The translations under genes were made by a program, and so were the position numbers. Shown here one piece after another: positions 22,762-45,306 of a stretch of 64,000 nucleotides of DNA. The notes under the pieces are model-generated. The model was not told the origin of the DNA, made no database searches, and saw only the letters and a list, made by a program, of their open reading frames with translations. Origin of the DNA: an uncultured Bacilli bacterium (GTDB lineage: Bacteria > Bacillota_I > Bacilli_A > RF39 > UBA660); NCBI GenBank assembly GCA_910584085.1, contig CAJTZY010000002.1:61043-125042 (forward strand), given 5' to 3'. Positions within the stretch are counted from its first letter, which is position 1. Each line of letters begins with the position of its first letter.

Positions 22762-24054
22762 ATGACTAAAAGACGTGATAATAGACAACGTTTATTACAT
22801 AATGGAGAGAGCCAAAGAAAAGACGGAAGATATGCTTTTAAATATATTGATACTTTTGGAAAACCACAATTTATATATTCGTGGCGACTTGTACCAACGG
22901 ATAAGACACCAGTAGGTAAGCGAAATGACTTATCTTTACGAGAAAAAGAAAAGATTTTACAAAGAGATATTGACGACGGAATAGACACGATAGGTAAAAA
23001 AATGACAGTATGTCAATTGTATTCAAAACATACACGACAACGTGGAAATGTTAAGGATAATACTGAAATAGGACGTAATAGACTTATGAAGCTATTAGAA
23101 GAAGATAAGCTCGGTCATTGTGCTATTGAAAAGGTAAATATATCCGATGCAATAGATTTTGTAATTCGTATGAAAGAAAAAGGAATAGCTTATAAAACTA
23201 TAAGTAATGATAAAAGGTCTTTAAAGGCCACTTTTTATACAGCTATACGAAATAATTGTATAAGAACTAACCCTTTTGATTTCCAAATCAGTGAGGTACT
23301 AAAAGACGATACAAAGCCAAAAGTACCACTTACACAAGAACAAGAGGATAGTTTGTTATTATTTATTCAAAGTGATAATGTTTACTATAAATACTATGAC
23401 GATGTTATTCTCCTTTTAGAAACTGGACTACGTATTTCTGAATTTTGTGGACTAACTGAAAAAGACATTGATTTTGAAAACCGACTAATCAATGTAGACC
23501 ACCAACTATTAAGAAACAAGAAGCGAGGCTACTATATTGAAGAGCCTAAAACTGAAAAAGGAAAGCGAAAAATACCTATGAGCGAAAAGGCTTATATAGT
23601 ATTTAAACGTGTAATAGAAAGAAGCAAGAAATATGATAAGTCAATAACTATTGACGGATATAGTGGCTTTATATTTATAAAAAATAATGGTTATCCTAAA
23701 GTATGTTGTGATTATGATAGTGTATTTCGTGGTATAAAGAAGAAGTATAATAAAAAAAGCAATAGTATAGCTCTACCCAATGTTATGACACCTCATACAC
23801 TACGTCATACATTTTGTACGAACTGGGCTAATGCAGGTATGAACCCTCATACTCTACAATACATAATGGGTCATGCAAATATTCTTATTACACTAAGTTA
23901 TTATACACACCCTACCTATATGTCGGCTCAAGCTGAAATGGAGAGAATACGAAAACAACAACAAATTTACTACTCTTGTACTACTTTTGAAAGCGAAAAT
24001 ATAAAAAGTAATAACAATTTATGTGAATATCTTCCACAATTAAAAATGTCTTAA
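22762..24054 (+). CDS. int: tyrosine integrase, Tn916 Int-Tn family
   Basis: N-terminal MTKRRDNRQRLLHNGESQRKDGRYAFKYIDTFGKPQFIYSWRL and C-terminal HTLRHTFCTNWANAGMNPHTLQYIMGHANI...YYTH (R-H-R-Y catalytic region) align along the whole length to Int-Tn as recalled. Confidence 0.9.
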   Translation: MTKRRDNRQRLLHNGESQRKDGRYAFKYIDTFGKPQFIYSWRLVPTDKTPVGKRNDLSLREKEKILQRDIDDGIDTIGKKMTVCQLYSKHTRQRGNVKDNTEIGRNRLMKLLEEDKLGHCAIEKVNISDAIDFVIRMKEKGIAYKTISNDKRSLKATFYTAIRNNCIRTNPFDFQISEVLKDDTKPKVPLTQEQEDSLLLFIQSDNVYYKYYDDVILLLETGLRISEFCGLTEKDIDFENRLINVDHQLLRNKKRGYYIEEPKTEKGKRKIPMSEKAYIVFKRVIERSKKYDKSITIDGYSGFIFIKNNGYPKVCCDYDSVFRGIKKKYNKKSNSIALPNVMTPHTLRHTFCTNWANAGMNPHTLQYIMGHANILITLSYYTHPTYMSAQAEMERIRKQQQIYYSCTTFESENIKSNNNLCEYLPQLKMS

Positions 24055-30461: not shown

Positions 30462-30551
30462 TAGTTATTGTTAATTAAATTAAGATGTTTTTTGTTATAT
30501 GTGATATAATAAGTTTATAAATATAATATTATTTGGAGTGTGATTATTTTT

Positions 30552-30983
30552 ATGAAAGAATTATTAATTAAATACAAAGAAATAATTAATTATTTAATAT
30601 TTGGCGTTTTAACTACATTAATTAGTTTAATTACTTATTATGCTTTAACTTTTACAATGTTAAATCCAAATTCAAGTATTGAACTACAAATAGCCAATAT
30701 TATTTCATGGTGTGTGGGAGTATTATTTGCATATTTTACAAATAGAAAATTTGTATTTAATAGTAAAAATAATGATAGATTAAAAGAATTTATTACCTTT
30801 ACTGGTGCTAGAGTAACAACATTAATTTTAGATATGTTAATTATGTTTATATTTGTAACTACTCTTAAATTTAACGATAAAATATTTAAGTTAATAAGTC
30901 AAGTACTTGTAGTTATTGGAAATTATATACTAAGTAAGTTAATTGTATTTAAAAGGAGTAATCATGAAAAAAATAATAGATAA
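30552..30983 (+). CDS. GtrA-family small membrane protein (polyprenyl-phosphate-sugar flippase-like)
   Basis: 143 aa with 4 predicted TM segments and the GtrA-like pattern; sits at the head of the GT-C/GT2 genes. Confidence 0.6.
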   Translation: MKELLIKYKEIINYLIFGVLTTLISLITYYALTFTMLNPNSSIELQIANIISWCVGVLFAYFTNRKFVFNSKNNDRLKEFITFTGARVTTLILDMLIMFIFVTTLKFNDKIFKLISQVLVVIGNYILSKLIVFKRSNHEKNNR

Positions 30984-33036
30984 AATAGTAAGTATTGGAT
31001 ATAAAATAATGTTAGTATTTATGATTGTTTGTTTTTCTATATCACTCATAGGTGCGGTATTTTTTTATGTAAATAGAAGCCATAATTATTTGAATCCAGT
31101 GGCACTTATAATTGGCTCTATAATTTATTTACTTTTAATAATTAAACTATATAGATTTATTATAAAACTTAACAGCAGAACAAAAAGAATAGTATTTATA
31201 GTTTTATTAATACTACAGTTTATACTTTTGTTTTTAAGTTCACAGATAATAAGCAGTGTGCCTAAAGTAGACTTAATACATGTTTTAACTGAGATTAATA
31301 ATTTAAATGATAATGGTAAAATATTAAATAATAATTACTTTTCAGTATACCCAAATAATAGATTTTTAGTAATAATTTTATATATAATTCAAAAAATACC
31401 TATAGATAATCATATATTATTTGGAATATTTAGTAGTTTATGTATTACAGTTATGTCACTTTTTACATATAAGACTGTCCTTAGAATATCTGATGATTCA
31501 AAAGCATTATTAAGCTTATTTATATGTGTATTTTCCCCAATATTTTATCTTTATGTATCCTATTATTATACAGATATTTTGATGCTTCCACTAGCTAGTA
31601 TTTTAATTTATTTAATGATTAAAGTTAAAGATAGTGATAATACAAAGACTAATATTATATATGGAATTTTAATTGGTATAATTGCTGTTTTAGGCTATAA
31701 AATAAGAGCCGTATGTATATTTATTTTATTTGCTTATATAATTTATATTTTTATTCAAAAAAGAGGTAGTATTTTTAAAAAACTTACTCCAATATTAATG
31801 GGTTTGATAATATCCCTTGTATGTATTAAATTTATAGATAGTAGTTTTTTTCCACATATAAACAAAAATAAAGAATTTCCTATGACACACTGGATTATGA
31901 TGGGAGTAAATGAAAAGACTAATGGCTATTATAATCACTCTGATTATAAACTAAGTGCAGCAGAAAAAACAGTTGGTGATAGAACTAAACTAAATATAGA
32001 AATTATAAAAGATAGGTTAAGTGATCAAGGTGTACTTAAAACAGGAAAATTATTAATTTCTAAACTTGTAACAGTTTGGGGAAAAGGAGATTATAGTTAT
32101 CAAAAGTATTTAGATTTAGTTAAAGATTATAATATATCCTATAGGTATTTGGTTGAAGATAAAAATATAGTTATTAATTATGTATTACAGTTTTCTAAAA
32201 TTACAATTTTAGTATTATGTATTATTTCTTTTGTTAAATTATATAAAACAAAAAAAATATCATTTATGGCTATTTCAATATTTGGAGCAATTATTTTTTA
32301 TCTAATTTGGGAAGTATGTCCAAGATATGGATTATCATTTCTTCCATGGCTTATACTTTTGTCTTCATATTCATATGACTCCATAAATATAAACTTTAGT
32401 AAATTTAAAATTTATAAGTATATTAAATATTTACTTGTAATACTTACTATTATTTTATTTGGAGTGGGATTTAATAAATATACAAGTGTTGATTTAAAAA
32501 ATAGTATAGTATCAAAATCTACTGCTAATAAGGTTAGATATATTAATTTAAATGAAAATATTATTATTAATCAAGGTTTAAAATTAAATAGCAAATTTAA
32601 TGAGATAAAATTAAAATTTAAAATAAATGAAAGTGATACTAGTGAAGATAGAATATTTAAATTAGAACTAAGGGATGAAAAAAATAATGTAGTATATGAA
32701 AGAGATTTTGCTGTAAATGATATAAAAAATGATAAATATACAACATTTAAGTTAGATAAGTATTATAATAAAGGTAATTACAGTATTAGGCTTAGTTCAA
32801 ATATAAATAGTAAAGTAGATGCATATGTATCATATAAAAAAGAATATGATTACTACCCAAGCGGGGTATTAAAAGTAAATGGAAATATTGAAACTGGGGA
32901 CTTAATGTTTGAAGTAAGTAACCATGAACTTCGTTCAATTTATAGTTATTTTGAATATATAATTATATTTATTTTAACAATAGGAATAGAGTATGTAGTG
33001 TTATTTAGGGGAAAGGAAGAAGTATATGAAAAATAA
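30964..33036 (+). CDS. polytopic GT-C-fold glycosyltransferase (ArnT/PMT/YfhO-like) with a C-terminal extracytoplasmic domain
   Basis: About 12 TM helices over roughly 450 aa, then a soluble domain. AAGGAGT RBS at the ATG at 30964. Overlaps its neighbours. Confidence 0.6.
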   Translation: MKKIIDKIVSIGYKIMLVFMIVCFSISLIGAVFFYVNRSHNYLNPVALIIGSIIYLLLIIKLYRFIIKLNSRTKRIVFIVLLILQFILLFLSSQIISSVPKVDLIHVLTEINNLNDNGKILNNNYFSVYPNNRFLVIILYIIQKIPIDNHILFGIFSSLCITVMSLFTYKTVLRISDDSKALLSLFICVFSPIFYLYVSYYYTDILMLPLASILIYLMIKVKDSDNTKTNIIYGILIGIIAVLGYKIRAVCIFILFAYIIYIFIQKRGSIFKKLTPILMGLIISLVCIKFIDSSFFPHINKNKEFPMTHWIMMGVNEKTNGYYNHSDYKLSAAEKTVGDRTKLNIEIIKDRLSDQGVLKTGKLLISKLVTVWGKGDYSYQKYLDLVKDYNISYRYLVEDKNIVINYVLQFSKITILVLCIISFVKLYKTKKISFMAISIFGAIIFYLIWEVCPRYGLSFLPWLILLSSYSYDSININFSKFKIYKYIKYLLVILTIILFGVGFNKYTSVDLKNSIVSKSTANKVRYINLNENIIINQGLKLNSKFNEIKLKFKINESDTSEDRIFKLELRDEKNNVVYERDFAVNDIKNDKYTTFKLDKYYNKGNYSIRLSSNINSKVDAYVSYKKEYDYYPSGVLKVNGNIETGDLMFEVSNHELRSIYSYFEYIIIFILTIGIEYVVLFRGKEEVYEK

Positions 33037-33976
33037 ACCAATATTAAATTTAGTTATACCATGTTATAACGAAGAAGAGGCCTTACCAATAACTCGTAGT
33101 GAGTTAGATAGAAAGATGAATGAATTAATTGATAATGGACTTATTAGTAAACATAGTAAAGTTGTTTTAGTAAATGATGGTTCTCGTGATAAGACATGGG
33201 AAATTATAGAAAAACTACACAAAGAAAATGATATGTATGTTGGAATCAATTTGTCTAGAAATAGGGGCCATCAAAATGCGCTACTTGCGGGACTTATGTA
33301 TGCTAAGGAGCACTCTCATATAAGTATTAGTATGGATGCAGATCTTCAAGATGATATTAATGTAATGGATGATATGATTAAAAAATATAATGAAGGTGCA
33401 GATATAGTTTACGGTGTACGCAACTCAAGAAAGAAAGATACCTTTTTTAAAAAATTTACTGCCGAGGGATTTTATAAGTTCATGGGTGTTATGGGTGTTG
33501 AAATAGTATTTAACCATGCTGATTGTAGACTTATGAGTAAACGTGCACTTGAGGGACTTAGCGAGTATAATGAAGTAAATTTATTTTTAAGGGGTATAGT
33601 GCCTCAAGTTGGGTATAAAACAGATATTGCTTACTATGAGAGGAATGAGAGAGTTGCAGGTACTTCAAAATATCCATTAAAAAAAATGTTATCATTTGCA
33701 ATAGATGGAATAACATCTTGCAGTATTAAACCACTTAGAATGATTACATCTATAGGCTTTATAATCTTATTATTAAGCTTTATTGTTCTAATTTATTCAT
33801 GTATTATGAAAATAATAGGCAATACAGTATCTGGTTGGACTTTTATAGTTTGTTCAATTTGGCTAATCGGTGCTATTCAAACTTTATGTTTAGGAGTAAT
33901 TGGCGAATATATTGGGAAAATATATAATGAAACAAAGAAGAGACCTAGATACATTATTGAAAGTATATTGGATTAA
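33026..33976 (+). CDS. GT2 polyprenyl-phosphate glycosyltransferase (GtrB/CsbB-like)
   Basis: LVIPCYNEEEALP...VNDGSRDKTWEI...DADLQDD with two C-terminal TM helices. Confidence 0.8.
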   Translation: MKNKPILNLVIPCYNEEEALPITRSELDRKMNELIDNGLISKHSKVVLVNDGSRDKTWEIIEKLHKENDMYVGINLSRNRGHQNALLAGLMYAKEHSHISISMDADLQDDINVMDDMIKKYNEGADIVYGVRNSRKKDTFFKKFTAEGFYKFMGVMGVEIVFNHADCRLMSKRALEGLSEYNEVNLFLRGIVPQVGYKTDIAYYERNERVAGTSKYPLKKMLSFAIDGITSCSIKPLRMITSIGFIILLLSFIVLIYSCIMKIIGNTVSGWTFIVCSIWLIGAIQTLCLGVIGEYIGKIYNETKKRPRYIIESILD

Positions 33977-33987
33977 GTAGAGATTAT

Positions 33988-34911
33988 ATGATACAAGAAG
34001 AATTTGAAATAAAGGATAATGTACTTGTAAAATATCATGAACAAAAAGGAAAAACAAAGGTAGTTATACCAGATGGTGTTATTGAAATAAAGAATGGTGC
34101 ATTCTCTAATTGTATAAATTTAATTGATATAACAATACCAAATAGTGTAAAAGAAATAGGTATGCATTGTTTTTATAACTGTAGTAATTTAAGGAATATA
34201 AAATTACCAGATAAGTTAGAATTTATTTGGAATGGATTATTCCATGGGTGTACAAGTTTAAGTACCATAACACTTCCAAAAAGTGTAACATATATAGGAG
34301 ATCAAGCATTTGACGGTTGTGAAAATTTAACAAGTATAGTAATACCAGATACAGTAACAGATATAAGGGATTTTGCGTTTTGGGATTGTAAAAAACTCGT
34401 AGAGATAACCCTACCAAATAGTATATCAAATATGGGGTGCATGGTATTTGATGGTTGTGAAAATTTAAAAAAGATTAATATATCTTCATATAAGACATTT
34501 TATTTGATTGATCGTAACTTAGATGCAATCGCACTAAATACTATAATAAAAAATAAGCAACAATTTAGTGAAGAAGAGATAACTAAATTTAAAGAATATA
34601 TAATAGAAAATAAAATGTATCTTATAAAGCATATTTTAAAAAATGATGACCTACTAGATTTACTAAACTATATGCTAAATAATATGGGACTAGTTTATAC
34701 TAAGGAAGAAGTAGATTCAATATTAAATGAAGTTATTAATTTGAATGAAGTCAATAATAAAGCAGAAATCACTGGTATGTTCCTTGAATATAAAAAGAGA
34801 AATTTTGGATTTGAAAATCCATTAGATGAATTTGATTTGGGTGAGCTTAATAATGAAGAAATAAACTTGAACAATGATGAAGACGAAAATAAAAAAGGAA
34901 GGTTGATATAA
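33988..34911 (+). CDS. BspA-type leucine-rich-repeat protein (no signal peptide evident)
   Basis: Repeated IPNSVKEIGxxCFxNCxNLxxIxLP units, about 6 of them. Confidence 0.7.
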   Translation: MIQEEFEIKDNVLVKYHEQKGKTKVVIPDGVIEIKNGAFSNCINLIDITIPNSVKEIGMHCFYNCSNLRNIKLPDKLEFIWNGLFHGCTSLSTITLPKSVTYIGDQAFDGCENLTSIVIPDTVTDIRDFAFWDCKKLVEITLPNSISNMGCMVFDGCENLKKINISSYKTFYLIDRNLDAIALNTIIKNKQQFSEEEITKFKEYIIENKMYLIKHILKNDDLLDLLNYMLNNMGLVYTKEEVDSILNEVINLNEVNNKAEITGMFLEYKKRNFGFENPLDEFDLGELNNEEINLNNDEDENKKGRLI

Positions 34912-35330: not shown

Positions 35331-35445
35331 AAATTAGTTAAAAATGTGGAATTTTGAAAGAAATTTCATTTTTTTTCATTTTTTTTCCGAAAAAAAAAGG
35401 AAATCGGAAACTTTTGTCGAATAATATAAGTAAGGAGGTGATAAT

Positions 35446-37524
35446 ATAAAAAAATATCCACACGTTGTACAGGACGAAATAAAAGATTGTGGAGTATCAT
35501 GCTTACAGATGATAATTAATTATTATGGTGGGTATGTAAGAAAAAATATTTTACTTGATATGACAAAAACAAGTAAAGATGGAACTACTGCATATCACTT
35601 AAAGGAAACCTTAATTAATTTGGGATTTGAAGCAAAAGGGATAAGTTGCAATTTAGAGGACATTAATCAGGAGAATATAGTTCTTCCTTGTATTGCAAAT
35701 GTTATAATAGATAACTCCTATAAACACTTTATAGTTATATATGAAATAAATTTTAGGAAAAAATATTTAATTATAGGAGATCCTGCAGATAAAATAAAGA
35801 AAATAACATATCAAGAATTCGACAAAATATTTAACAATGTATTAATTACTTGTTACCCTATAAAAACTTTGCCGGTGAGCAAAGATATTTCAATTATACA
35901 ATTCATGTTTCATTCATTAAATCCTTATAAAAAACTTCTATTAAACATCTTTGTTTTATCTATCTTTATAACCATCTTTTCTATACTTACAAGTTTTTAT
36001 ACAGAATATATGATTAATGGGATAAATACATATTCTAAAAATTATCTATTATTAATTTTTTGTATCTTCTTTTCTATATATGCCTTGAAACTTTTATCAG
36101 ATTACTTTAGAAATAAAACATTATCATATATCAATCAAAAACTCGATCTTGTACTTACTTTAGATATTTATAATAAAATTATAAAACTTCCTTATTGCTA
36201 TTACAAAAATAGGACAACCGGTGATGTATTATCTAGAATAAATGATTTAGATAATGTAAGAGAAATGATTAGTAAAGTATCTCTTTCGCTTTTTGTTGAT
36301 TTACCACTTACAATAATATCTTTAATAGTTTTATACTTAATAAATTCTACATTATTTATGATTGGACTAGCTATATTATTTCTATATTTTATAATAATTA
36401 TTTTATTTAGGGGATTATTTAATGATTATATTAAAAAAATACAGACTAAAAAAAGCGAATCTACATCATATATGATAGAGTCTATTAGTGGGTTTGAAAC
36501 AGTAAAAGGTATCCATTTAGAAAATAGTGTTATAGATAAGTTTGAGAAAAAATATGTTAAATTATTAAAAGATATTTTTAATTATCAAAATTTATATTTT
36601 CTTCAAAATTTATTTAAAGAAATAATAAATAATATTGGTTTTATTTTAATTACATTTGTTGGATGTGTTTTAGTTATTGAAGATAAAATTCAAGTTGGGA
36701 CATTATTTACATTTAACGCACTTCTTGTATATTTTTTAGAACCTATAAAAAATATTATTAATTTAGATAATACTATAAAAGAAGCAAAAAATTCCTTAAA
36801 AAGAGTTTTAGATATGGTTACTTATAATAAAGAAGATATCGGAGTAATTAGTGAATTTAAAAATGGGAATATTGACGTGAAAAATTTAGACTTTTCATTT
36901 AATGATAGAGATTATATTTTAAAAAATGTAAATTTATCTATTAATATGGGTTCAAGAGTTATGGTAGTTGGTAAAAGTGGAAGTGGTAAAAGTACATTAT
37001 TTAAAATTTTGATGAAGTACTATAATATTAAAAATAATAGTATATTTATTAATAATGTAGATATAAATGATTATGAAATGCGTGCTATAAAAGATAATAT
37101 TTTATATTTAAGTCAAAATGAGATTTTATTTAATGATACCTTATACAATAATTTAATTTTTGATAATAGTGATTGTTCTAAACTTAATATGGTTTCAGAT
37201 ATGTGTTGTTTGAGAGAAGTTATGGATAGTAATCTTGGATTTAATATGCTTATAGAAGAGAACGGATTTAACTTATCTGGTGGGGAAAAGCAGAGAATCG
37301 TACTTGCTAGAACATTACTTAAGCCTTTTGAAATTTTAATAATTGATGAGGGTCTTAGTCAGGTAGATGTTAGTTTAGAAAGAAAAATATTAAAAAATAT
37401 TTTTAAAAATTTTAGTGATAAAACTATAATTATGATTTCTCATAGGCTAGAAAATTTAGATTTGTTTGATAGTTTAGTTAGAATAGAGAATGGAGTTGTT
37501 AAAGATGTATGCAAAAATGGATAA
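35446..37524 (+). CDS. bacteriocin-type ABC exporter with an N-terminal C39 peptidase domain; start codon uncertain
   Basis: The frame is open from 35434. KYPHVVQDEIKDCGVSCLQMIINYYGG (C39 catalytic Cys region) lies upstream of the first ATG at 35509. TM domain; Walker A GKSGSGKST, LSGGEKQR, Walker B ILIIDE. The only in-frame candidate after the AAGGAGGTGA RBS is ATA at 35446. Confidence 0.75.
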   Translation: MKKYPHVVQDEIKDCGVSCLQMIINYYGGYVRKNILLDMTKTSKDGTTAYHLKETLINLGFEAKGISCNLEDINQENIVLPCIANVIIDNSYKHFIVIYEINFRKKYLIIGDPADKIKKITYQEFDKIFNNVLITCYPIKTLPVSKDISIIQFMFHSLNPYKKLLLNIFVLSIFITIFSILTSFYTEYMINGINTYSKNYLLLIFCIFFSIYALKLLSDYFRNKTLSYINQKLDLVLTLDIYNKIIKLPYCYYKNRTTGDVLSRINDLDNVREMISKVSLSLFVDLPLTIISLIVLYLINSTLFMIGLAILFLYFIIIILFRGLFNDYIKKIQTKKSESTSYMIESISGFETVKGIHLENSVIDKFEKKYVKLLKDIFNYQNLYFLQNLFKEIINNIGFILITFVGCVLVIEDKIQVGTLFTFNALLVYFLEPIKNIINLDNTIKEAKNSLKRVLDMVTYNKEDIGVISEFKNGNIDVKNLDFSFNDRDYILKNVNLSINMGSRVMVVGKSGSGKSTLFKILMKYYNIKNNSIFINNVDINDYEMRAIKDNILYLSQNEILFNDTLYNNLIFDNSDCSKLNMVSDMCCLREVMDSNLGFNMLIEENGFNLSGGEKQRIVLARTLLKPFEILIIDEGLSQVDVSLERKILKNIFKNFSDKTIIMISHRLENLDLFDSLVRIENGVVKDVCKNG

Positions 37525-37942
37525 TTTAGATATTTATAATAATTCGAGAGTAATATTAGAAAAAAATGCTCCTAAATCTATAGTGTCTTGGATTACAATT
37601 CTTTGTATACTATTAATATTATTAATTATTTTCTTTTCTATACCTTTTAATGTTTATAAAAGTTACGGAGGGTATATTAGTGTCTACAATCACAATTCCT
37701 ATTTAAATTTATTTATAACAAAAGGTGATTTTCCAATACATAAAAATAGTAAATTATATATAAAAAATGATAAATACAATTATGAGGTAATTGAAATAGA
37801 GGATGATAAAGTGATATTAAAGGTAAATTTGAAAGATGAAATAAATATTGATAACAATGTAGTACTGGTTAATATATTAAGTAATAGAACTACTGTATTT
37901 GAAATACTGAAAAATAAAATAAAGAAAGGACTAGATATATGA
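37508..37942 (+). CDS. short single-TM accessory protein (bacteriocin-secretion accessory / HlyD-like, truncated form)
   Basis: One N-terminal TM segment (IVSWITILCILLILLIIFF), about 145 aa. Overlaps the ABC gene end and the next ATG. Confidence 0.5.
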   Translation, partial: YAKMDNLDIYNNSRVILEKNAPKSIVSWITILCILLILLIIFFSIPFNVYKSYGGYISVYNHNSYLNLFITKGDFPIHKNSKLYIKNDKYNYEVIEIEDDKVILKVNLKDEINIDNNVVLVNILSNRTTVFEILKNKIKKGLDI

Positions 37943-38079
37943 AGAATTTAACAAATGACGAATTAAAAAATGTAGATGGAGGAGGATTTAAATTAGGAAT
38001 TGGGCTTGGAATCGCTGCAGGTGTAACATTTATAATAGGTTTTATAGATGGTTTAATTAGACCACTTAAGTGTAATTAG
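37939..38079 (+). CDS. double-glycine-leader bacteriocin peptide A (46 aa), not in the ORF track
   Basis: MKNLTNDELKNVDGG | GFKLGIGLGIAAGVTFIIGFIDGLIRPLKCN. The leader fits LxxxELxxVxGG and the core has GxxxG motifs (GIGLG, GIAAG). Its ATG overlaps the upstream stop (ATGA). Confidence 0.7.
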   Translation: MKNLTNDELKNVDGGGFKLGIGLGIAAGVTFIIGFIDGLIRPLKCN

Positions 38080-38087
38080 GAGGGCAT

Positions 38088-38258
38088 ATGAAAGAATTAG
38101 ATAGTAAAGAATTATTAAATATAGATGGAGGGGCCTCTTGGCTTACCGCATCATGGTTAAATGCAGCATCTAGAATTTTATCAACTATTATGGATTTAGG
38201 AAGAAGTTTAGGTACTGCTGTTAGAAGAACTATACATGGTTCAATTTGCCCAGTTTAA
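38088..38258 (+). CDS. double-glycine-leader bacteriocin peptide B (56 aa), not in the ORF track
   Basis: AGGAGGG RBS. MKELDSKELLNIDGG | ASWLTASWLNAASRILSTIMDLGRSLGTAVRRTIHGSICPV. Confidence 0.7.
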   Translation: MKELDSKELLNIDGGASWLTASWLNAASRILSTIMDLGRSLGTAVRRTIHGSICPV

Positions 38259-38406
38259 AAAATATATAATACCTATTATTTTAATAGTTACAATTCCTTT
38301 TTGGCTACCGCTTTTAAACTATATATTTGATTTTATAATTCAAGCAGGAAGAATTACAGGAACTTATGTAAGAGTTATTGGAAGTGGAACCACTTGTACA
38401 TTTTAG
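38236..38406 (+). CDS. 56-aa hydrophobic peptide, putative immunity protein
   Basis: MVQFAQFKKYIIPIILIVTIPFWLPLLNYIFDFIIQAGRITGTYVRVIGSGTTCTF in the +1 frame, overlapping the end of peptide B. Weak RBS. The terminator AGAGAGTTTCTCTCTCTTTTT follows at 38404-38430. Confidence 0.4.
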   Translation: MVQFAQFKKYIIPIILIVTIPFWLPLLNYIFDFIIQAGRITGTYVRVIGSGTTCTF

Positions 38407-38723
38407 AGAGTTTCTCTCTCTTTTTCTTTCTGAATATTAAAAAATTTTCTTGTGAACTAGAAAAAATAATTTAAATATTAAAGTGTAAGTAGGGTAGCGA
38501 CTATCCGAAATTGGTCTATGGAGAAGTAAAGGCTTCTGTGAAGTAGAAAAAGTTATGCAAGGTAAATTTTATTTGTTTCTATATTAAAAAAACTAATATA
38601 ATATATTAAAAACAATAAAAAATGTAATAAATTGTCTAAAAATGATTTAAAACAAAAAGTTTTTCTTGTATAATTTAGATTCTAGTGTTATAATACTGGT
38701 AGATTTGTGAAAGGAGGGATTAT

Positions 38724-38918
38724 ATGTCAAAGGTAGTAGTAAGAAATGGTAATGTTGATGGTGCGTTACGTACTATGAAACAAAAAAATGCAAGAGACGG
38801 CCTCCTAAAAAAAGTTAGAGAAAGACAAGAAGGTTATAAAAAACCGGGAGTTAAACGTAGAGAAAAAAGAGAAGAAGGCATCAAGAATACAAGAAAAAGA
38901 CAAAGAGATAATTATTAG
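38724..38918 (+). CDS. rpsU: 30S ribosomal protein S21
   Basis: Basic 64-aa protein matching the S21 pattern (ALRTMKQK...GVKRREKRE). Own promoter TTGTAT-17-TGtTATAAT at about 38666-38694. Confidence 0.85.
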   Translation: MSKVVVRNGNVDGALRTMKQKNARDGLLKKVRERQEGYKKPGVKRREKREEGIKNTRKRQRDNY

Positions 38919-43830: not shown

Positions 43831-45306
43831 ATGAATAAAAAGGGTTTTACTTTAATAGAACTATTAGGTGTTATTATAATACTTTCATTAATTATGATAT
43901 TTGCTGTTCCTAAAATTTCTGATTCAGTAAAAAATCAAACTCAAAAGACTGATAAATTAACCGAAGATATTATATATAAAGCTACAAATTTATATATTGA
44001 AGATAATAAAGATGAGTATAGAAATAAAAATGGTGCAATTTATTGTATTTCATTAAATGAGTTATCTAAACTAGAATATTTAAGCAATACAGTTAATAAT
44101 GATATTATAAACACAAAAACTGTTAAAGTTATTAGTAAGAAAAATTTTAACTATGAATTAGTAGATAATGATAAATGTGTAGAAAATTTTCCACCACTTG
44201 AACCTAATTTACATAATAATAGTTTAATTCCTGTAGTATATAAAAATGAAAATTGGGTGGTAGTTGATAAGACAGACAAAAGTTGGTATGACTATGAAAA
44301 TCAAGAATGGGCAAATGCTGTAATACTAAAAAGTGGAGTAAATAAAAATATTGGAGATACTATAGATGTATCAAATGAGGTCCAGGGAATGTTTGTATGG
44401 ATACCAAGATACGAATATAAAATAGAGGGTACTTATGGAACACACTTAGATGGTACAGTTGGAACGCAGTCACTTCCGGGAGAGATAAAGGTTAACTTTA
44501 TAGGTACATCTAAGACTCAATCAAGTGATGGTTACATAATTCATCCAGCATTTACATTTGGAGATGAAATACTATCTGGAATATGGGTAGGTAAATTTGA
44601 AACAACTGGAACGGCTGAAAGTCCAACAATACTTCCAAGTGTAACATCACTTAGAAATCAAAATATAAGTACGCAGTTTGCAACTGCACAAAAATTTAAT
44701 CAGTATCTGTCAAATGGAGATAGCCATATGTCTAAAAATAGTGAATGGGGAGCTGTTGCATACCTATCACAGAGTATTTATGGAAAATATGGTAATCCAA
44801 ATTATACTGGTGAAGAAAAGGAAGTAGCAATCAACAATTGTTCTAGTTATATAACAGGTGTCGGCGGAGACACTGTAAGTGCAGAAGCATCAGCAGATAC
44901 ATGTGGGACGAATACATATGAAACCGAAAAAGGACAATCAGCTAGTACAACTGGAAATATAACTGGTGTATATGATATGAGTGGGGGAGCTTATGAAAGG
45001 GTAATGGGAGTATATAATAGACTTTTAAAAGATAGTGGTTTTGTAGAACTTCCAGAACCAAAGTATTACAACAATTATTTAACAGATAATATACAAATAG
45101 CATGCGATGGGAAACCTTGTTATGGATGTGCTTTATCTGAAACAAGCAAATGGTATAATGATTATTCAACATTTTTAGTAACTAACTATCCATGGATTAA
45201 TAGAAGTGGATGCACAACAGATACTAAAAATGCTGGAATATTTATGTATCATTATAATAGCGGGGCAGGATATAATAGAGACTCATTCCGTATTGTAATT
45301 TCTTAA
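43831..45306 (+). CDS. type IV pilin-like protein with prepilin N-terminus and a large C-terminal domain
   Basis: MNKKG|FTLIELLGVIIILSLIMIF: cleavage after Gly, Glu at +5, hydrophobic helix. 491 aa. A terminator GAAACACTTATGTGTTTC follows at 45325-45345. Confidence 0.7.
   Translation: MNKKGFTLIELLGVIIILSLIMIFAVPKISDSVKNQTQKTDKLTEDIIYKATNLYIEDNKDEYRNKNGAIYCISLNELSKLEYLSNTVNNDIINTKTVKVISKKNFNYELVDNDKCVENFPPLEPNLHNNSLIPVVYKNENWVVVDKTDKSWYDYENQEWANAVILKSGVNKNIGDTIDVSNEVQGMFVWIPRYEYKIEGTYGTHLDGTVGTQSLPGEIKVNFIGTSKTQSSDGYIIHPAFTFGDEILSGIWVGKFETTGTAESPTILPSVTSLRNQNISTQFATAQKFNQYLSNGDSHMSKNSEWGAVAYLSQSIYGKYGNPNYTGEEKEVAINNCSSYITGVGGDTVSAEASADTCGTNTYETEKGQSASTTGNITGVYDMSGGAYERVMGVYNRLLKDSGFVELPEPKYYNNYLTDNIQIACDGKPCYGCALSETSKWYNDYSTFLVTNYPWINRSGCTTDTKNAGIFMYHYNSGAGYNRDSFRIVIS

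What the first reader, a model, noticed from the sequence alone, without database searches (positions are those of the whole stretch)
35431..38432. Class IIb-like two-peptide bacteriocin locus whose structural and immunity genes are below the ORF-caller threshold
Downstream of the C39-ABC exporter and a short accessory gene lie two ORFs with textbook double-glycine leaders (MKNLTNDELKNVDGG / MKELDSKELLNIDGG). The cores are 31 and 41 aa, GxxxG-rich and amphipathic, and the ORFs are translationally coupled (ATGA overlap; AGGAGGG RBS). A 56-aa hydrophobic ORF overlaps the end of peptide B in the +1 frame and is followed by a strong terminator, which makes it a plausible immunity gene. No HK/RR/pheromone genes are present, so regulation is unclear. 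A T8/T8/A9 homopolymer-rich region lies upstream of the ABC gene.
Basis: seen in the sequence. Interest (0 to 1): 0.6.

Follow-up and report, generated by a model that had tools for sequence, protein, structure and literature searches.

The report
Two-peptide bacteriocin operon with mimic protein
An uncultured gut bacterium carries a compact five-gene operon that looks like a two-peptide antimicrobial (bacteriocin) system, and its presumed self-protection gene is unexpectedly a membrane-anchored copy of one of the two toxin peptides.

Summary
Window 35446-38421 holds one tightly packed operon. It encodes a C39-peptidase ABC exporter, a 145-aa accessory protein, two double-glycine-leader peptides (A 46 aa, B 56 aa) and an overlapping 56-aa ORF3, followed by a short terminator.

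The same cassette sits upstream of rpsU in dozens of uncultured gut Bacilli MAGs and metagenome contigs. It diverges in step with housekeeping genes and is under purifying selection (ω 0.24-0.41). In an S21-seeded sample, 21 of 30 rpsU loci carry it.

Peptide A passes the NCBIfam class IIb (lactobin A/cerein 7B) cutoff. B and ORF3 are unannotated families.

- **ORF3 is a paralogue of peptide B.** The local alignment score is 48 against 17.7±3.3 for shuffles, and hhalign gives E 5e-7. A basic N-terminus plus a transmembrane helix replaces the leader.
- **The exporter starts on ATA.** Relatives have ATT, ATC or ATG at the same site. Public gene calls begin at an internal ATG and cut off the catalytic cysteine.

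Best reading: a class IIb-like bacteriocin in which ORF3 is a B-mimicking immunity protein. Function is untested. Five lineages keep A and B without ORF3. I found no regulator within about 12 kb.

The parts
35369..35398 (+). Homopolymer block T8 / T8 / A9 between the upstream GNAT acetyltransferase gene and the operon. It probably comprises the terminator tail of the upstream gene plus an A/T-tract promoter-upstream region.
   Evidence: Read directly in the sequence. An equivalent hairpin+T8 / T-run / A-run / AAAGGAAAT block is conserved in 13 lineages. The run lengths are identical in the near-identical strains L002 and L003, so there is no sign of phase variation. The function is inferred.
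35434..35438 (+). Shine-Dalgarno GGAGG of the ABC gene, placed directly after the in-frame stop TAA at 35431-33.
   Evidence: GGAGGTGAT is conserved in all lineages, with 7 nt between it and the start site.
35446..37524 (+). Peptidase-containing ABC exporter (C39 peptidase + 6-TM domain + ATPase), 692 aa, starting on ATA.
   Evidence: Pfam PF03412, PF00664 and PF00005. It aligns from residue 2 to residue 11 of PCAT1 (4ry2), E 1e-109, and to ComA at 1e-92. The catalytic Cys (DCG) lies upstream of the first ATG, and no ATG/GTG/TTG follows the stop. The homologous codon is ATG in 4 lineages, ATA in 8, ATT in 6, ATC in 1 and ACG in 1.
37505..37942 (+). Accessory protein, 145 aa: an N-terminal helix, one TM helix and a small beta-domain. 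It overlaps the end of the ABC gene by 20 nt, and its TGA stop overlaps the ATG of peptide A (ATGA).
   Evidence: 313 homologous clusters, all 132-150 aa and unannotated. The AF2 model has pLDDT 81.7, with a TM helix at 24-45 and beta strands across 48-129. There are no significant PDB fold matches. It gives only a weak hit to the Mycoplasma MAG1140 family (16 bits against a cutoff of 35).
37939..38079 (+). Peptide A precursor, 46 aa: a 15-aa GG leader (37939-37983) plus a 31-aa hydrophobic, GxxxG-rich core ending in IDGLIRPLKCN.
   Evidence: TIGR03949 32.3 bits (cutoff 21.5) and TIGR01847 17.1 bits (cutoff 15.7). Invariant residues across 21 lineages are G20, F31, I33, G34, D37, G38, R41, P42 and C45. 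Omega is 0.24.
38078..38084 (+). AGGAGGG ribosome-binding site of peptide B, overlapping the TAG stop of peptide A.
   Evidence: It is conserved as TAGGAGG(G/A) in the relatives.
38088..38258 (+). Peptide B precursor, 56 aa: a 15-aa GG leader (38088-38132) plus a 41-aa amphipathic cationic core containing the motif LGRSLGTAVRR....G..C.
   Evidence: Only the leader matches known families. The first search found just 5 clusters, but B is present in all cassette loci. Invariant core residues are G38, G42 and C54. muH is 0.69. Omega is 0.31.
38236..38406 (+). ORF3, 56 aa: a basic N-terminus (KK), a TM helix, and a C-terminal half paralogous to peptide B (AGRITGTYVR....G..C). Its start overlaps the end of B by 23 nt. 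It is the candidate immunity protein.
   Evidence: The frame is open in all close relatives, with indels in whole codons. The family has 48 clusters, and the exhaustive search found 29 representatives at 50% clustering. Omega is 0.41 in the non-overlapping part. Against the B core it scores 48 versus 17.7±3.3 for shuffles, 0 of 20000. hhalign gives 92% probability and E 5.4e-7. AF2 predicts a single helix at 3-49.
38405..38430 (+). Operon terminator: the hairpin AGAGAG-TTT-CTCTCT, which begins inside the ORF3 stop codon, followed by a T-rich run.
   Evidence: -7 kcal/mol. The equivalent GAGAG...CTCTC hairpin follows the ORF3 stop in all compared loci.

Best explanation
Window 35446-38421 is a single five-gene operon for a class IIb-like, unmodified two-peptide bacteriocin in an uncultured, AT-rich gut Bacilli bacterium. 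Steps marked 'shown' rest on the sequence analysis here. Steps marked 'inferred' do not.

1. Shown: the genes are packed for coupled translation. ABC and accessory overlap by 20 nt, accessory and A share ATGA, the stop of A lies inside the RBS of B, and the ORF3 start lies 13-29 nt inside the end of B in every lineage.
2. Inferred from homology to PCAT1 and ComA: the C39 domain of the ABC exporter cuts the 15-residue leaders after Gly-Gly and exports a 31-aa hydrophobic peptide A and a 41-aa amphipathic cationic peptide B. The small single-TM accessory protein assists.
3. Inferred from the class IIb model: A and B pair through their invariant GxxxG motifs (A G34xxxG38, B G38xxxG42) to form a membrane-permeabilising helix-helix unit in target cells, probably docking on a conserved membrane protein. 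The single invariant Cys near each C-terminus either forms an A-B disulfide or acts as a free thiol.
4. ORF3 is shown to be a paralogue of B in which a basic N-terminus and a transmembrane helix replace the leader and amphipathic N-half. It keeps B's GRxxGT..R....G..C tail. I infer that it sits N-in/C-out in the producer's membrane as a permanently inserted, non-toxic B mimic. It would pair with incoming A, or occupy B's site on the receptor, and so give immunity. Coupling its translation to B would match its dose to toxin output.
5. Shown: the exporter initiates on a near-cognate AUA codon behind a perfect SD. I speculate that this keeps exporter levels low or ties them to initiation-factor status, which may stand in for the missing quorum-sensing regulators.
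For: - Domain content and full-length match to PCAT1 and ComA.
- GG leaders. A is above the TIGR03949 and TIGR01847 cutoffs.
- The leaders weakly match CtA, the substrate of PCAT1.
- Invariant GxxxG and Cys in A and B across 21-22 lineages.
- Physicochemistry typical of class IIb peptides.
- Operon packing and a conserved terminator.
- The cassette is conserved in more than 40 contigs, with purifying selection on A, B and ORF3.
- B/ORF3 homology, with negative controls A versus ORF3 and AbpIM versus Abp118 alpha and beta.
- ORF3 has the size, position and predicted single helix of proven small class IIb immunity proteins: CbnZ 42 aa (N-in/C-out), BrcI 53, EnkIaz 52, AbpIM 55 (PMC6957408).
- The class IIb definition and GxxxG model come from PMC2850506.
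- ATA/ATT/ATC/ATG alternate at one fixed start site.
Against: - There are no functional data. The B and ORF3 cores have no characterised homologue.
- ORF3 is absent in L018, L040, L041, L047 and L048, which keep A and B. It cannot be the only or an indispensable immunity factor.
- The ORF3 Cys is not invariant.
- The cassette is vertically inherited at one chromosomal site and evolves under purifying rather than diversifying selection. It is absent from plasmids and viral contigs. All of this is atypical for antagonistic peptides.
- No regulator lies nearby.
- The accessory protein is unrelated to LcnD/HlyD-type accessory proteins.
- The ABC protein scores below the curated TIGR01193 cutoff (424 against 524).
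- The ORF3 topology is only predicted.
Confidence: 0.5

Rival explanations
1. The cassette is not a weapon but a conserved, self-directed export system. On this reading A, B and ORF3 are small membrane or envelope proteins of the producer, for example subunits of one membrane complex. A and B reach the outer leaflet through the C39 exporter, and ORF3 inserts from inside.
For: The cassette sits at a fixed locus upstream of rpsU and co-diverges with S21 and YqeY down to about 71% S21 identity. Omega is 0.24-0.41 with near-invariant C-termini. There are no regulators or mobile-element links. B and ORF3 are paralogues, as expected for subunits of one assembly.
Against: About one third of the S21-defined relatives lack the cassette at this site, so it is dispensable. 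The architecture matches class IIb loci point for point. A belongs to a bacteriocin family. I know of no precedent for housekeeping membrane subunits exported through GG leaders.
Confidence: 0.2
2. ORF3 is not the immunity protein. It may be a third toxin or helper subunit. It may instead be a Sec-exported precursor cleaved after ..IIQA to release a 19-aa B-tail-like peptide (GRITGTYVRVIGSGTTCTF) that acts as a modulator or signal. Immunity would then come from the accessory protein or from an unlinked gene.
For: ORF3 is missing in five lineages that retain A and B. IIQA|G fits the -3/-1 rule in the window sequence. The class IIb review notes that accessory proteins may contribute to immunity (PMC2850506).
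Against: The -1 residue is L, Y, I or V in many family members, so signal-peptidase cleavage is not conserved. The stretch that would be discarded (WLPLLNYIFDFII) is the best conserved part and aligns with the B core. The position, size and single TM helix match proven small immunity proteins.
Confidence: 0.15
3. A and/or B are secreted signalling peptides (pheromones) for a regulator encoded elsewhere.
For: GG leaders are shared with ComC/BlpC-type pheromones. Weak leader-only hits to ComC, BlpC and EntF models appear. No regulator is needed in cis.
Against: No HK or RR lies within about 12 kb. The cores are long, hydrophobic or amphipathic, GxxxG-bearing and paired, unlike 17-27-aa pheromones. 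All pheromone-model hits cover only the leader.
Confidence: 0.05
4. The locus is decaying. The exporter has lost its start codon, so the peptides are no longer processed.
For: No ATG/GTG/TTG lies upstream of the catalytic Cys in the window. In L040 the A and B C-termini are degenerate.
Against: The 21 upstream codons are conserved at the protein level with synonymous changes. A perfect SD is kept 7 nt before ATA/ATT in 14 or more lineages, and the same site is ATG in four. The ABC protein is full length, with an intact catalytic triad and intact Walker motifs. All genes are under purifying selection.
Confidence: 0.05

Closest known systems
Class IIb two-peptide bacteriocin operons, e.g. lactococcin G (lagA-lagB-lagC-lagD-lagE) and carnobacteriocin XY with CbnZ
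   Same: Two adjacent GG-leader peptide genes. GxxxG motifs in both cationic 30-40-aa cores. A dedicated C39 ABC exporter plus an accessory gene in the same operon. A small membrane protein gene directly after the second peptide. ORF3 resembles CbnZ, BrcI and AbpIM in size (42-55 aa) and in its single-TM design (PMC2850506, PMC6957408).
   Different: The gene order runs exporter first. The accessory protein is 145 aa and unrelated to LcnD/HlyD-type proteins. The immunity-like protein is a paralogue of the second peptide, which is not seen in the ABP-118 control. One invariant Cys lies near each C-terminus. The locus is chromosomal, syntenic and vertically inherited across a deep clade. There is no three-component regulatory module. 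The exporter has a non-AUG start.
NCBIfam TIGR03949, class IIb bacteriocin, lactobin A/cerein 7B family
   Same: Peptide A scores 32.3 bits (cutoff 21.5) over leader plus Gly-rich core. The L028 orthologue scores 26.4.
   Different: The score comes from the leader and the Gly-rich N-half. The invariant C-terminal IDGxxRPLKC[NR] has no counterpart in the model. The most distant orthologue (L030) falls just below the cutoff at 21.2. Peptide B does not belong (17.0 bits, leader only).
PCAT1 of Clostridium thermocellum (PDB 4ry2) and ComA of Streptococcus
   Same: Full-length homology: E 1e-109 to PCAT1 and 1e-92 to ComA. The C39 Cys/His/Asp residues and the ABC motifs are present.
   Different: PCAT1 works without an accessory protein on a 90-aa cargo of unknown function. 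Here the cargo is two short peptides and a dedicated mini-accessory protein is present.
Mycoplasma Mbov_0121-family peptidase ABC transporter with MAG1140-family protein (NCBIfam NF045998 / NF045999)
   Same: A C39-ABC exporter is paired with a protein of about 126-145 aa. The weak full-length match of the accessory protein to MAG1140 is reproducible (E about 0.01). The hosts are Mollicutes-like Bacilli.
   Different: Both scores are far below the cutoffs (304 against 500, and 16 against 35). No literature on these families is in the held library. The relationship is unproven.

Membership tests
Class IIb (two-peptide) bacteriocins, as defined in PMC2850506 | Two different peptide genes next to each other in one operon | tested here: met
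   A is at 37939-38079 and B at 38088-38258, 8 nt apart, with no terminator between them. The pairing is conserved in all cassette loci.
Class IIb (two-peptide) bacteriocins | Double-glycine leader of 15-30 residues on both preforms | tested here: met
   Both have 15-residue leaders ending in GG. For A, TIGR01847 gives 17.1 bits against a cutoff of 15.7. The B leader aligns to positions 2-16 of TIGR03949. GG is invariant.
Class IIb (two-peptide) bacteriocins | Dedicated ABC transporter with a leader-cleaving C39 peptidase domain | tested here: met
   PF03412 1e-31 plus ABC_membrane plus ABC_tran. PCAT1 E 1e-109. The catalytic Cys is present only if translation starts at ATA 35446.
Class IIb (two-peptide) bacteriocins | GxxxG (or AxxxA/SxxxS) helix-helix motifs in both peptides | tested here: met
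   The A core has 4 GxxxG and the B core has 1. One motif in each is invariant across lineages.
Class IIb (two-peptide) bacteriocins | Immunity gene in the same operon | tested here: inconclusive
   ORF3 has the right position, size and single TM helix. It has no homology to any known immunity protein and is lost in five lineages.
Class IIb (two-peptide) bacteriocins | [quoted passage not shown] | not testable with these tools
   Requires synthetic peptides and indicator strains.
NCBIfam TIGR03949 (lactobin A/cerein 7B class IIb family) | Score at or above the curated cutoff of 21.5 bits | tested here: met
   Peptide A 32.3 bits. L028 orthologue 26.4 and L030 orthologue 21.2. Peptide B 17.0 bits, not met.
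Pfam PF10439 Bacteriocin_IIc | Score at or above the gathering cutoff of 27.1 bits | tested here: not met
   A 21.6 bits and B 16.3 bits.
NCBIfam TIGR01193 (peptide cleavage/export ABC transporter) | Score at or above the curated cutoff of 523.85 bits | tested here: not met
   424.2 bits over the full length. This is the best-matching model and the architecture is the same, but the score is below the cutoff.
Mycoplasma NF045998 / NF045999 pair (Mbov_0121 ABC + MAG1140) | Scores at or above the curated cutoffs (500 and 35 bits) | tested here: not met
   ABC 304.3 bits and accessory 16.2 bits. L028 accessory 16.1 bits.
Small single-TM class IIb immunity proteins (CbnZ type, PMC6957408) | One TM domain, N-terminus inside and C-terminus outside, encoded just after the structural genes, and conferring resistance when expressed | tested here: inconclusive
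   Position is met. One long helix at 3-49, a hydrophobic stretch at 12-30 and the basic N-terminus fit N-in/C-out by the positive-inside rule. Topology and protection have not been tested. This group has no shared sequence family.

The most novel reading that the evidence does not exclude
Immunity by subunit mimicry. The producer protects itself with a membrane-anchored, leaderless paralogue of toxin peptide B. The paralogue keeps B's GxxxG/Arg/Cys interaction surface and acts as a dominant-negative partner for peptide A, or as a competitor at the receptor. It would be the first class IIb immunity protein with a readable mechanism, and the first shown to derive from its own toxin. The whole system would also be a domesticated, vertically inherited trait of a Mollicutes-like gut Bacilli clade, tuned by a non-AUG start on the exporter instead of quorum sensing.
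Probability: 0.3. Interest if true: 0.7.

Novelty: new variant of a known kind. Interest (0 to 1): 0.55.

Why it matters
[quoted passage not shown] An immunity-like protein that is visibly a tethered copy of one toxin subunit gives a concrete, mutable hypothesis: the GxxxG, Arg and Cys positions are shared between B and ORF3.

The locus also defines three unannotated protein families (peptide B, ORF3 and the 145-aa accessory protein). They are widespread in uncultured gut Bacilli of rabbits, ruminants and humans.

It shows that automated annotation systematically truncates the exporter by 21 codons, which removes the catalytic cysteine. The cause is an ATA/ATT start. This is relevant to any genome-mining pipeline that scores C39 domains.

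If the peptides are active, they are short, unmodified and easy to synthesise.

Tried and rejected
- **Rfam.** The whole window at gathering thresholds and 38380-38760 at E≤1 gave nothing. The conserved-looking intergenic stretch 38470-38575 folds no better than shuffles (z -0.6), so I dropped it.
- **tRNA scan.** None found.
- **Exact look-up of the 150-aa accessory ORF.** It failed because the real start is 37505 (145 aa).
- **BLASTP of B against ORF3.** No hit. The similarity shows only in Smith-Waterman scores against shuffles and in profile comparison.
- **Mobile-element origin.** No relatives on viral contigs, and no peptide A match on plasmids.
- **Programmed frameshift fusing B to ORF3.** Rejected. 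The overlap length varies from 13 to 29 nt, no slippery site is conserved, and ORF3 has its own conserved ATG.
- **S-glycosylation of the C-terminal Cys by the upstream GT2.** Rejected. The GT2/PMT_2/GtrA genes are of the membrane polyprenol type and are not linked to the cassette in other lineages.
- **Phase variation at the homopolymers.** No length variation among near-identical strains.
- **Literature.** No paper in the held library contains the peptide motifs, MAG1140 or Mbov_0121. None describes bacteriocin-derived decoy immunity. The IIBacFinder atlas has no held supplements to check.

Full report
**1. What is in the sequence**

On the + strand lie an ABC-transporter ORF (35509..37524) and a short ORF (37490/37505..37942). 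Three small ORFs follow:
- Peptide A, 37939..38079, 46 aa: MKNLTNDELKNVDGG-GFKLGIGLGIAAGVTFIIGFIDGLIRPLKCN.
- Peptide B, 38088..38258, 56 aa: MKELDSKELLNIDGG-ASWLTASWLNAASRILSTIMDLGRSLGTAVRRTIHGSICPV.
- ORF3, 38236..38406, 56 aa: MVQFAQFKKYIIPIILIVTIPFWLPLLNYIFDFIIQAGRITGTYVRVIGSGTTCTF.

ORF3 overlaps the end of B by 23 nt in the +1 frame. A hairpin plus T-run follows at 38405..38421. The T8/T8/A9 block lies at 35369-35398.

The genes are tightly packed. ABC and accessory overlap by 20 nt. The accessory TGA overlaps the ATG of A (ATGA). The TAG of A sits inside the AGGAGGG ribosome-binding site of B.

- The ATGA overlap joins the accessory gene to A, not A to B.
- The terminator is modest (6-bp stem, -7 kcal/mol, z -0.9 against shuffles), although it is conserved in position.
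- The ABC start is mis-placed (section 5).

**2. Family assignments**

The ABC protein has Peptidase_C39, ABC_membrane and ABC_tran domains. Its best NCBIfam model is TIGR01193, the peptide cleavage/export ABC transporter, at 424 bits, below the curated cutoff of 524. Its closest solved relatives are PCAT1 (E 1e-109, full length) and ComA (1e-92).

Peptide A passes the curated cutoffs of TIGR03949 (class IIb, lactobin A/cerein 7B; 32.3 against 21.5 bits) and of the GG-leader model TIGR01847. It misses Pfam Bacteriocin_IIc (21.6 against 27.1).

For peptide B, only the leader matches anything. ORF3 and the accessory protein match no Pfam family. The accessory protein gives a weak but reproducible full-length hit to the Mycoplasma MAG1140 family (16 bits, cutoff 35). 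The ABC protein likewise hits the partner Mycoplasma model NF045998 below its cutoff.

Rfam finds nothing in the window.

**3. The cassette is a conserved unit in an uncultured gut clade**

Homologues of B, ORF3 and the accessory protein come only from metagenomes and MAGs. Source labels include 'Bacilli bacterium', 'Firmicutes bacterium' and 'uncultured Tenericutes bacterium UMGS872'. Samples come from rabbit, roe deer, rumen and Hadza and other human guts. The window is identical to NCBI MAG GCA_949841305.1 over the locus.

In every locus reached through a cassette protein, the order is ABC, accessory (141-145 aa), A (44-50 aa), B (53-58 aa), usually ORF3 (44-60 aa, always starting 13-29 nt inside the end of B), then a terminator, rpsU and yqeY. 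Occasionally an unrelated gene is inserted before rpsU.

Identity to the window proteins falls in step with the housekeeping neighbours:

| Protein | Identity range |
|---|---|
| S21 | 100→71% |
| YqeY | 99→59% |
| Peptide A | 98→59% |
| Peptide B | 100→43% |
| ABC | 98→47% |
| ORF3 | 96→28% |
| Accessory | 96→26% |

The unit is therefore old and inherited vertically.

Pooled Nei-Gojobori estimates over seven independent pairs give ω = 0.24 (A), 0.31 (B, non-overlapping part), 0.41 (ORF3, non-overlapping part), 0.45 (accessory) and 0.08 (S21). All three small ORFs are real genes under purifying selection. dS is partly saturated, so these values are approximate.

All of those loci were found through the cassette itself. 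To remove that bias, I searched metagenome contigs with S21. Thirty loci had S21 at 75% identity or more and at least 600 nt upstream. Of these, 21 carry the cassette upstream of rpsU and 9 do not (for example L035 has infC-rplT-Fic-rpsU). After collapsing near-identical contigs, the fraction is roughly two thirds of lineages. The cassette is widespread but dispensable.

It has no relatives on viral contigs, and peptide A has no match on plasmids.

**4. ORF3 is a paralogue of peptide B**

The C-terminal half of ORF3 (…WLPLLNYIFDFIIQAGRITGTYVRVIGSGTTC..) aligns without gaps to the B core (…WLNAASRILSTIMDLGRSLGTAVRRTIHGSIC..). The BLOSUM62 score is 48, against 17.7±3.3 for 20,000 shuffles, none of which reaches 48. 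The similarity holds for cognate pairs from five lineages (p≤3e-4) and fades in the most diverged.

Profile-profile comparison of 22 B sequences with 49 ORF3 sequences gives 92% probability and E 5.4e-7 over 29 columns. The A-family control gives E 0.51.

The positions invariant in ORF3 (G38, R39, G42, R46) coincide with B's invariant G38xxxG42 and near-invariant R46. The conserved Cys lies at the same distance from the motif in both.

ORF3 replaces B's leader and amphipathic N-half with a basic N-terminus (K/N-K-K) and a hydrophobic stretch (Kyte-Doolittle 2.0 over residues 12-30). AlphaFold predicts one continuous helix at 3-49 (pLDDT 80).

The exhaustive profile search found 29 cluster representatives, all 49-88 aa with the same design.

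As a control, I tested whether small class IIb immunity proteins generally resemble their toxins. I took ABP-118 from pMP118. AbpIM (55 aa) shows no similarity to Abp118α or β (scores 14 and 15 against shuffles of 13-17).

**5. The exporter starts on a non-AUG codon**

The C39 catalytic cysteine (…QDEIKDCGVSC…) lies upstream of the first ATG. Between the in-frame stop (35431-33) and that ATG there is no ATG, GTG or TTG. A perfect GGAGG sits 7 nt before ATA 35446.

Across lineages this exact codon varies: ATA (8 lineages), ATT (6), ATC (1), ACG (1) and ATG (4: L018, L020, L023, L025). The SD and the next codons (KKYP) are conserved throughout.

With this start, the protein aligns from residue 2 to residue 11 of PCAT1. 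Public gene calls (671 aa) start 21 codons too late and lose the catalytic Cys.

**6. How it most likely works**

Shown:
- It is one operon with coupled translation.
- The C39-ABC exporter is intact.
- There are two GG-leader precursors, each with an invariant GxxxG motif and a single invariant Cys.
- A B-derived single-helix membrane protein has its start embedded in the end of B.

Inferred from the class IIb model (PMC2850506) and from PCAT1/ComA:
- The leaders are removed after GG during export.
- Hydrophobic A (+2, four GxxxG) and amphipathic B (+3, muH 0.69) pair through GxxxG in target membranes and permeabilise them.
- The near-invariant tail of A (IDGxxRPLKC[NR]) suggests a conserved docking partner.

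ORF3 fits the size, position and single-TM design of proven small class IIb immunity proteins: CbnZ 42 aa (N-in/C-out), BrcI 53, EnkIaz 52 and AbpIM 55 (PMC6957408). Because it preserves B's interaction motif, the most economical mechanism is mimicry. A permanently inserted, non-toxic B look-alike would capture A or occupy B's site on the receptor. Reviews describe the mechanism of class IIb immunity as unknown (PMC8538875).

The non-AUG start probably keeps exporter levels low. Whether it provides regulation in place of the absent HK/RR/pheromone module is speculation.

From my own knowledge, lactococcin B is a single-Cys bacteriocin whose activity depends on the reduced thiol. A free-thiol role for the Cys is therefore as plausible as an A-B disulfide.

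**7. Evidence against, and rival readings**

- There are no functional data.
- ORF3 is missing in L018, L040, L041, L047 and L048, although A and B persist. The ORF3 Cys is not invariant.
- Vertical inheritance and purifying selection are unusual for antagonistic peptides. They leave room for a non-antagonistic role, such as an exported membrane or envelope module.
- ORF3 could be a third subunit or a Sec-cleaved precursor. However, the putative cleavage site is not conserved, and the 'signal' part is the best conserved region that aligns to B.
- A pheromone role is unlikely, given the core length, hydrophobicity, pairing and lack of a kinase.
- Pseudogenisation of the exporter is contradicted by the conserved SD and AUH start and by purifying selection.

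**8. Novelty and verdict**

The architecture is that of a known kind, the class IIb operon, and peptide A falls in a known NCBIfam family. New here:
- The B family, the ORF3 family and the 145-aa accessory family. None is in Pfam or NCBIfam, and none of their motifs appear in the held literature.
- The toxin-derived immunity-like paralogue.
- The conserved non-AUG exporter start.
- The clade-wide syntenic conservation.

I rate it a new variant of a known kind, of moderate interest. The interest would rise if mimicry immunity were confirmed.

Noticed in passing
window 35431-35511; same site in L005, L011, L013-L018, L020-L026, L029, L037, L041, L056: The ABC exporter gene has no canonical start upstream of its catalytic Cys. 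A fixed codon 7 nt after GGAGG is ATA, ATT, ATC or ACG in most lineages and ATG in four. Public gene calls start 21 codons too late and delete the catalytic cysteine.
   Followed up: yes
window 38422-38723; L004, L005, L010, L011, L016, L021, L034, L046: The gap between the operon terminator and rpsU is an insertion hot spot. Different lineages carry a YhcG/DUF1016 nuclease gene, a 126-aa ORF, a 232-aa ORF or 2-3 kb inserts there. The window has about 300 nt with no Rfam match and no significant fold.
   Followed up: partly
L027 (CAVEJT010000023.1) versus L026: A contig titled 'Bacteroidaceae bacterium' carries a cassette almost identical to that of a Hadza 'Bacilli' MAG. The contig is probably mis-binned.
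   Followed up: no
window 22762-24054: A Tn916-type integrase (Phage_integrase + Integrase_DNA) lies about 11 kb upstream, which suggests an integrated element nearby. I saw no link to the cassette.
   Followed up: no
window 30540-34911: A GtrA-like flippase, a 697-aa PMT_2/CHIM-type glycosyltransferase, a GT2 polyprenol glycosyltransferase and an LRR_5 protein form a surface-glycosylation-type cluster just upstream. This cluster is not linked to the cassette in other lineages.
   Followed up: partly
proteins P0182, P0183, P0185, P0188, P0191, P0194: A 49-aa subfamily of ORF3-like proteins (…FIMQLGRIVGTIIRIIMNL) lacks the C-terminal Cys. I could not look up its genomic context.
   Followed up: no
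L040 3057-3373: In one lineage, A (…FIDGFVNTLAID) and B (…KLIHGILY) have lost the conserved C-terminal RPLKC and Cys motifs, and ORF3 is absent. The cassette may be decaying there.
   Followed up: partly
window 43831-45306: A 491-aa protein with a prepilin-type N-terminal methylation motif (N_methyl) lies downstream of the DHH-family gene.
   Followed up: no
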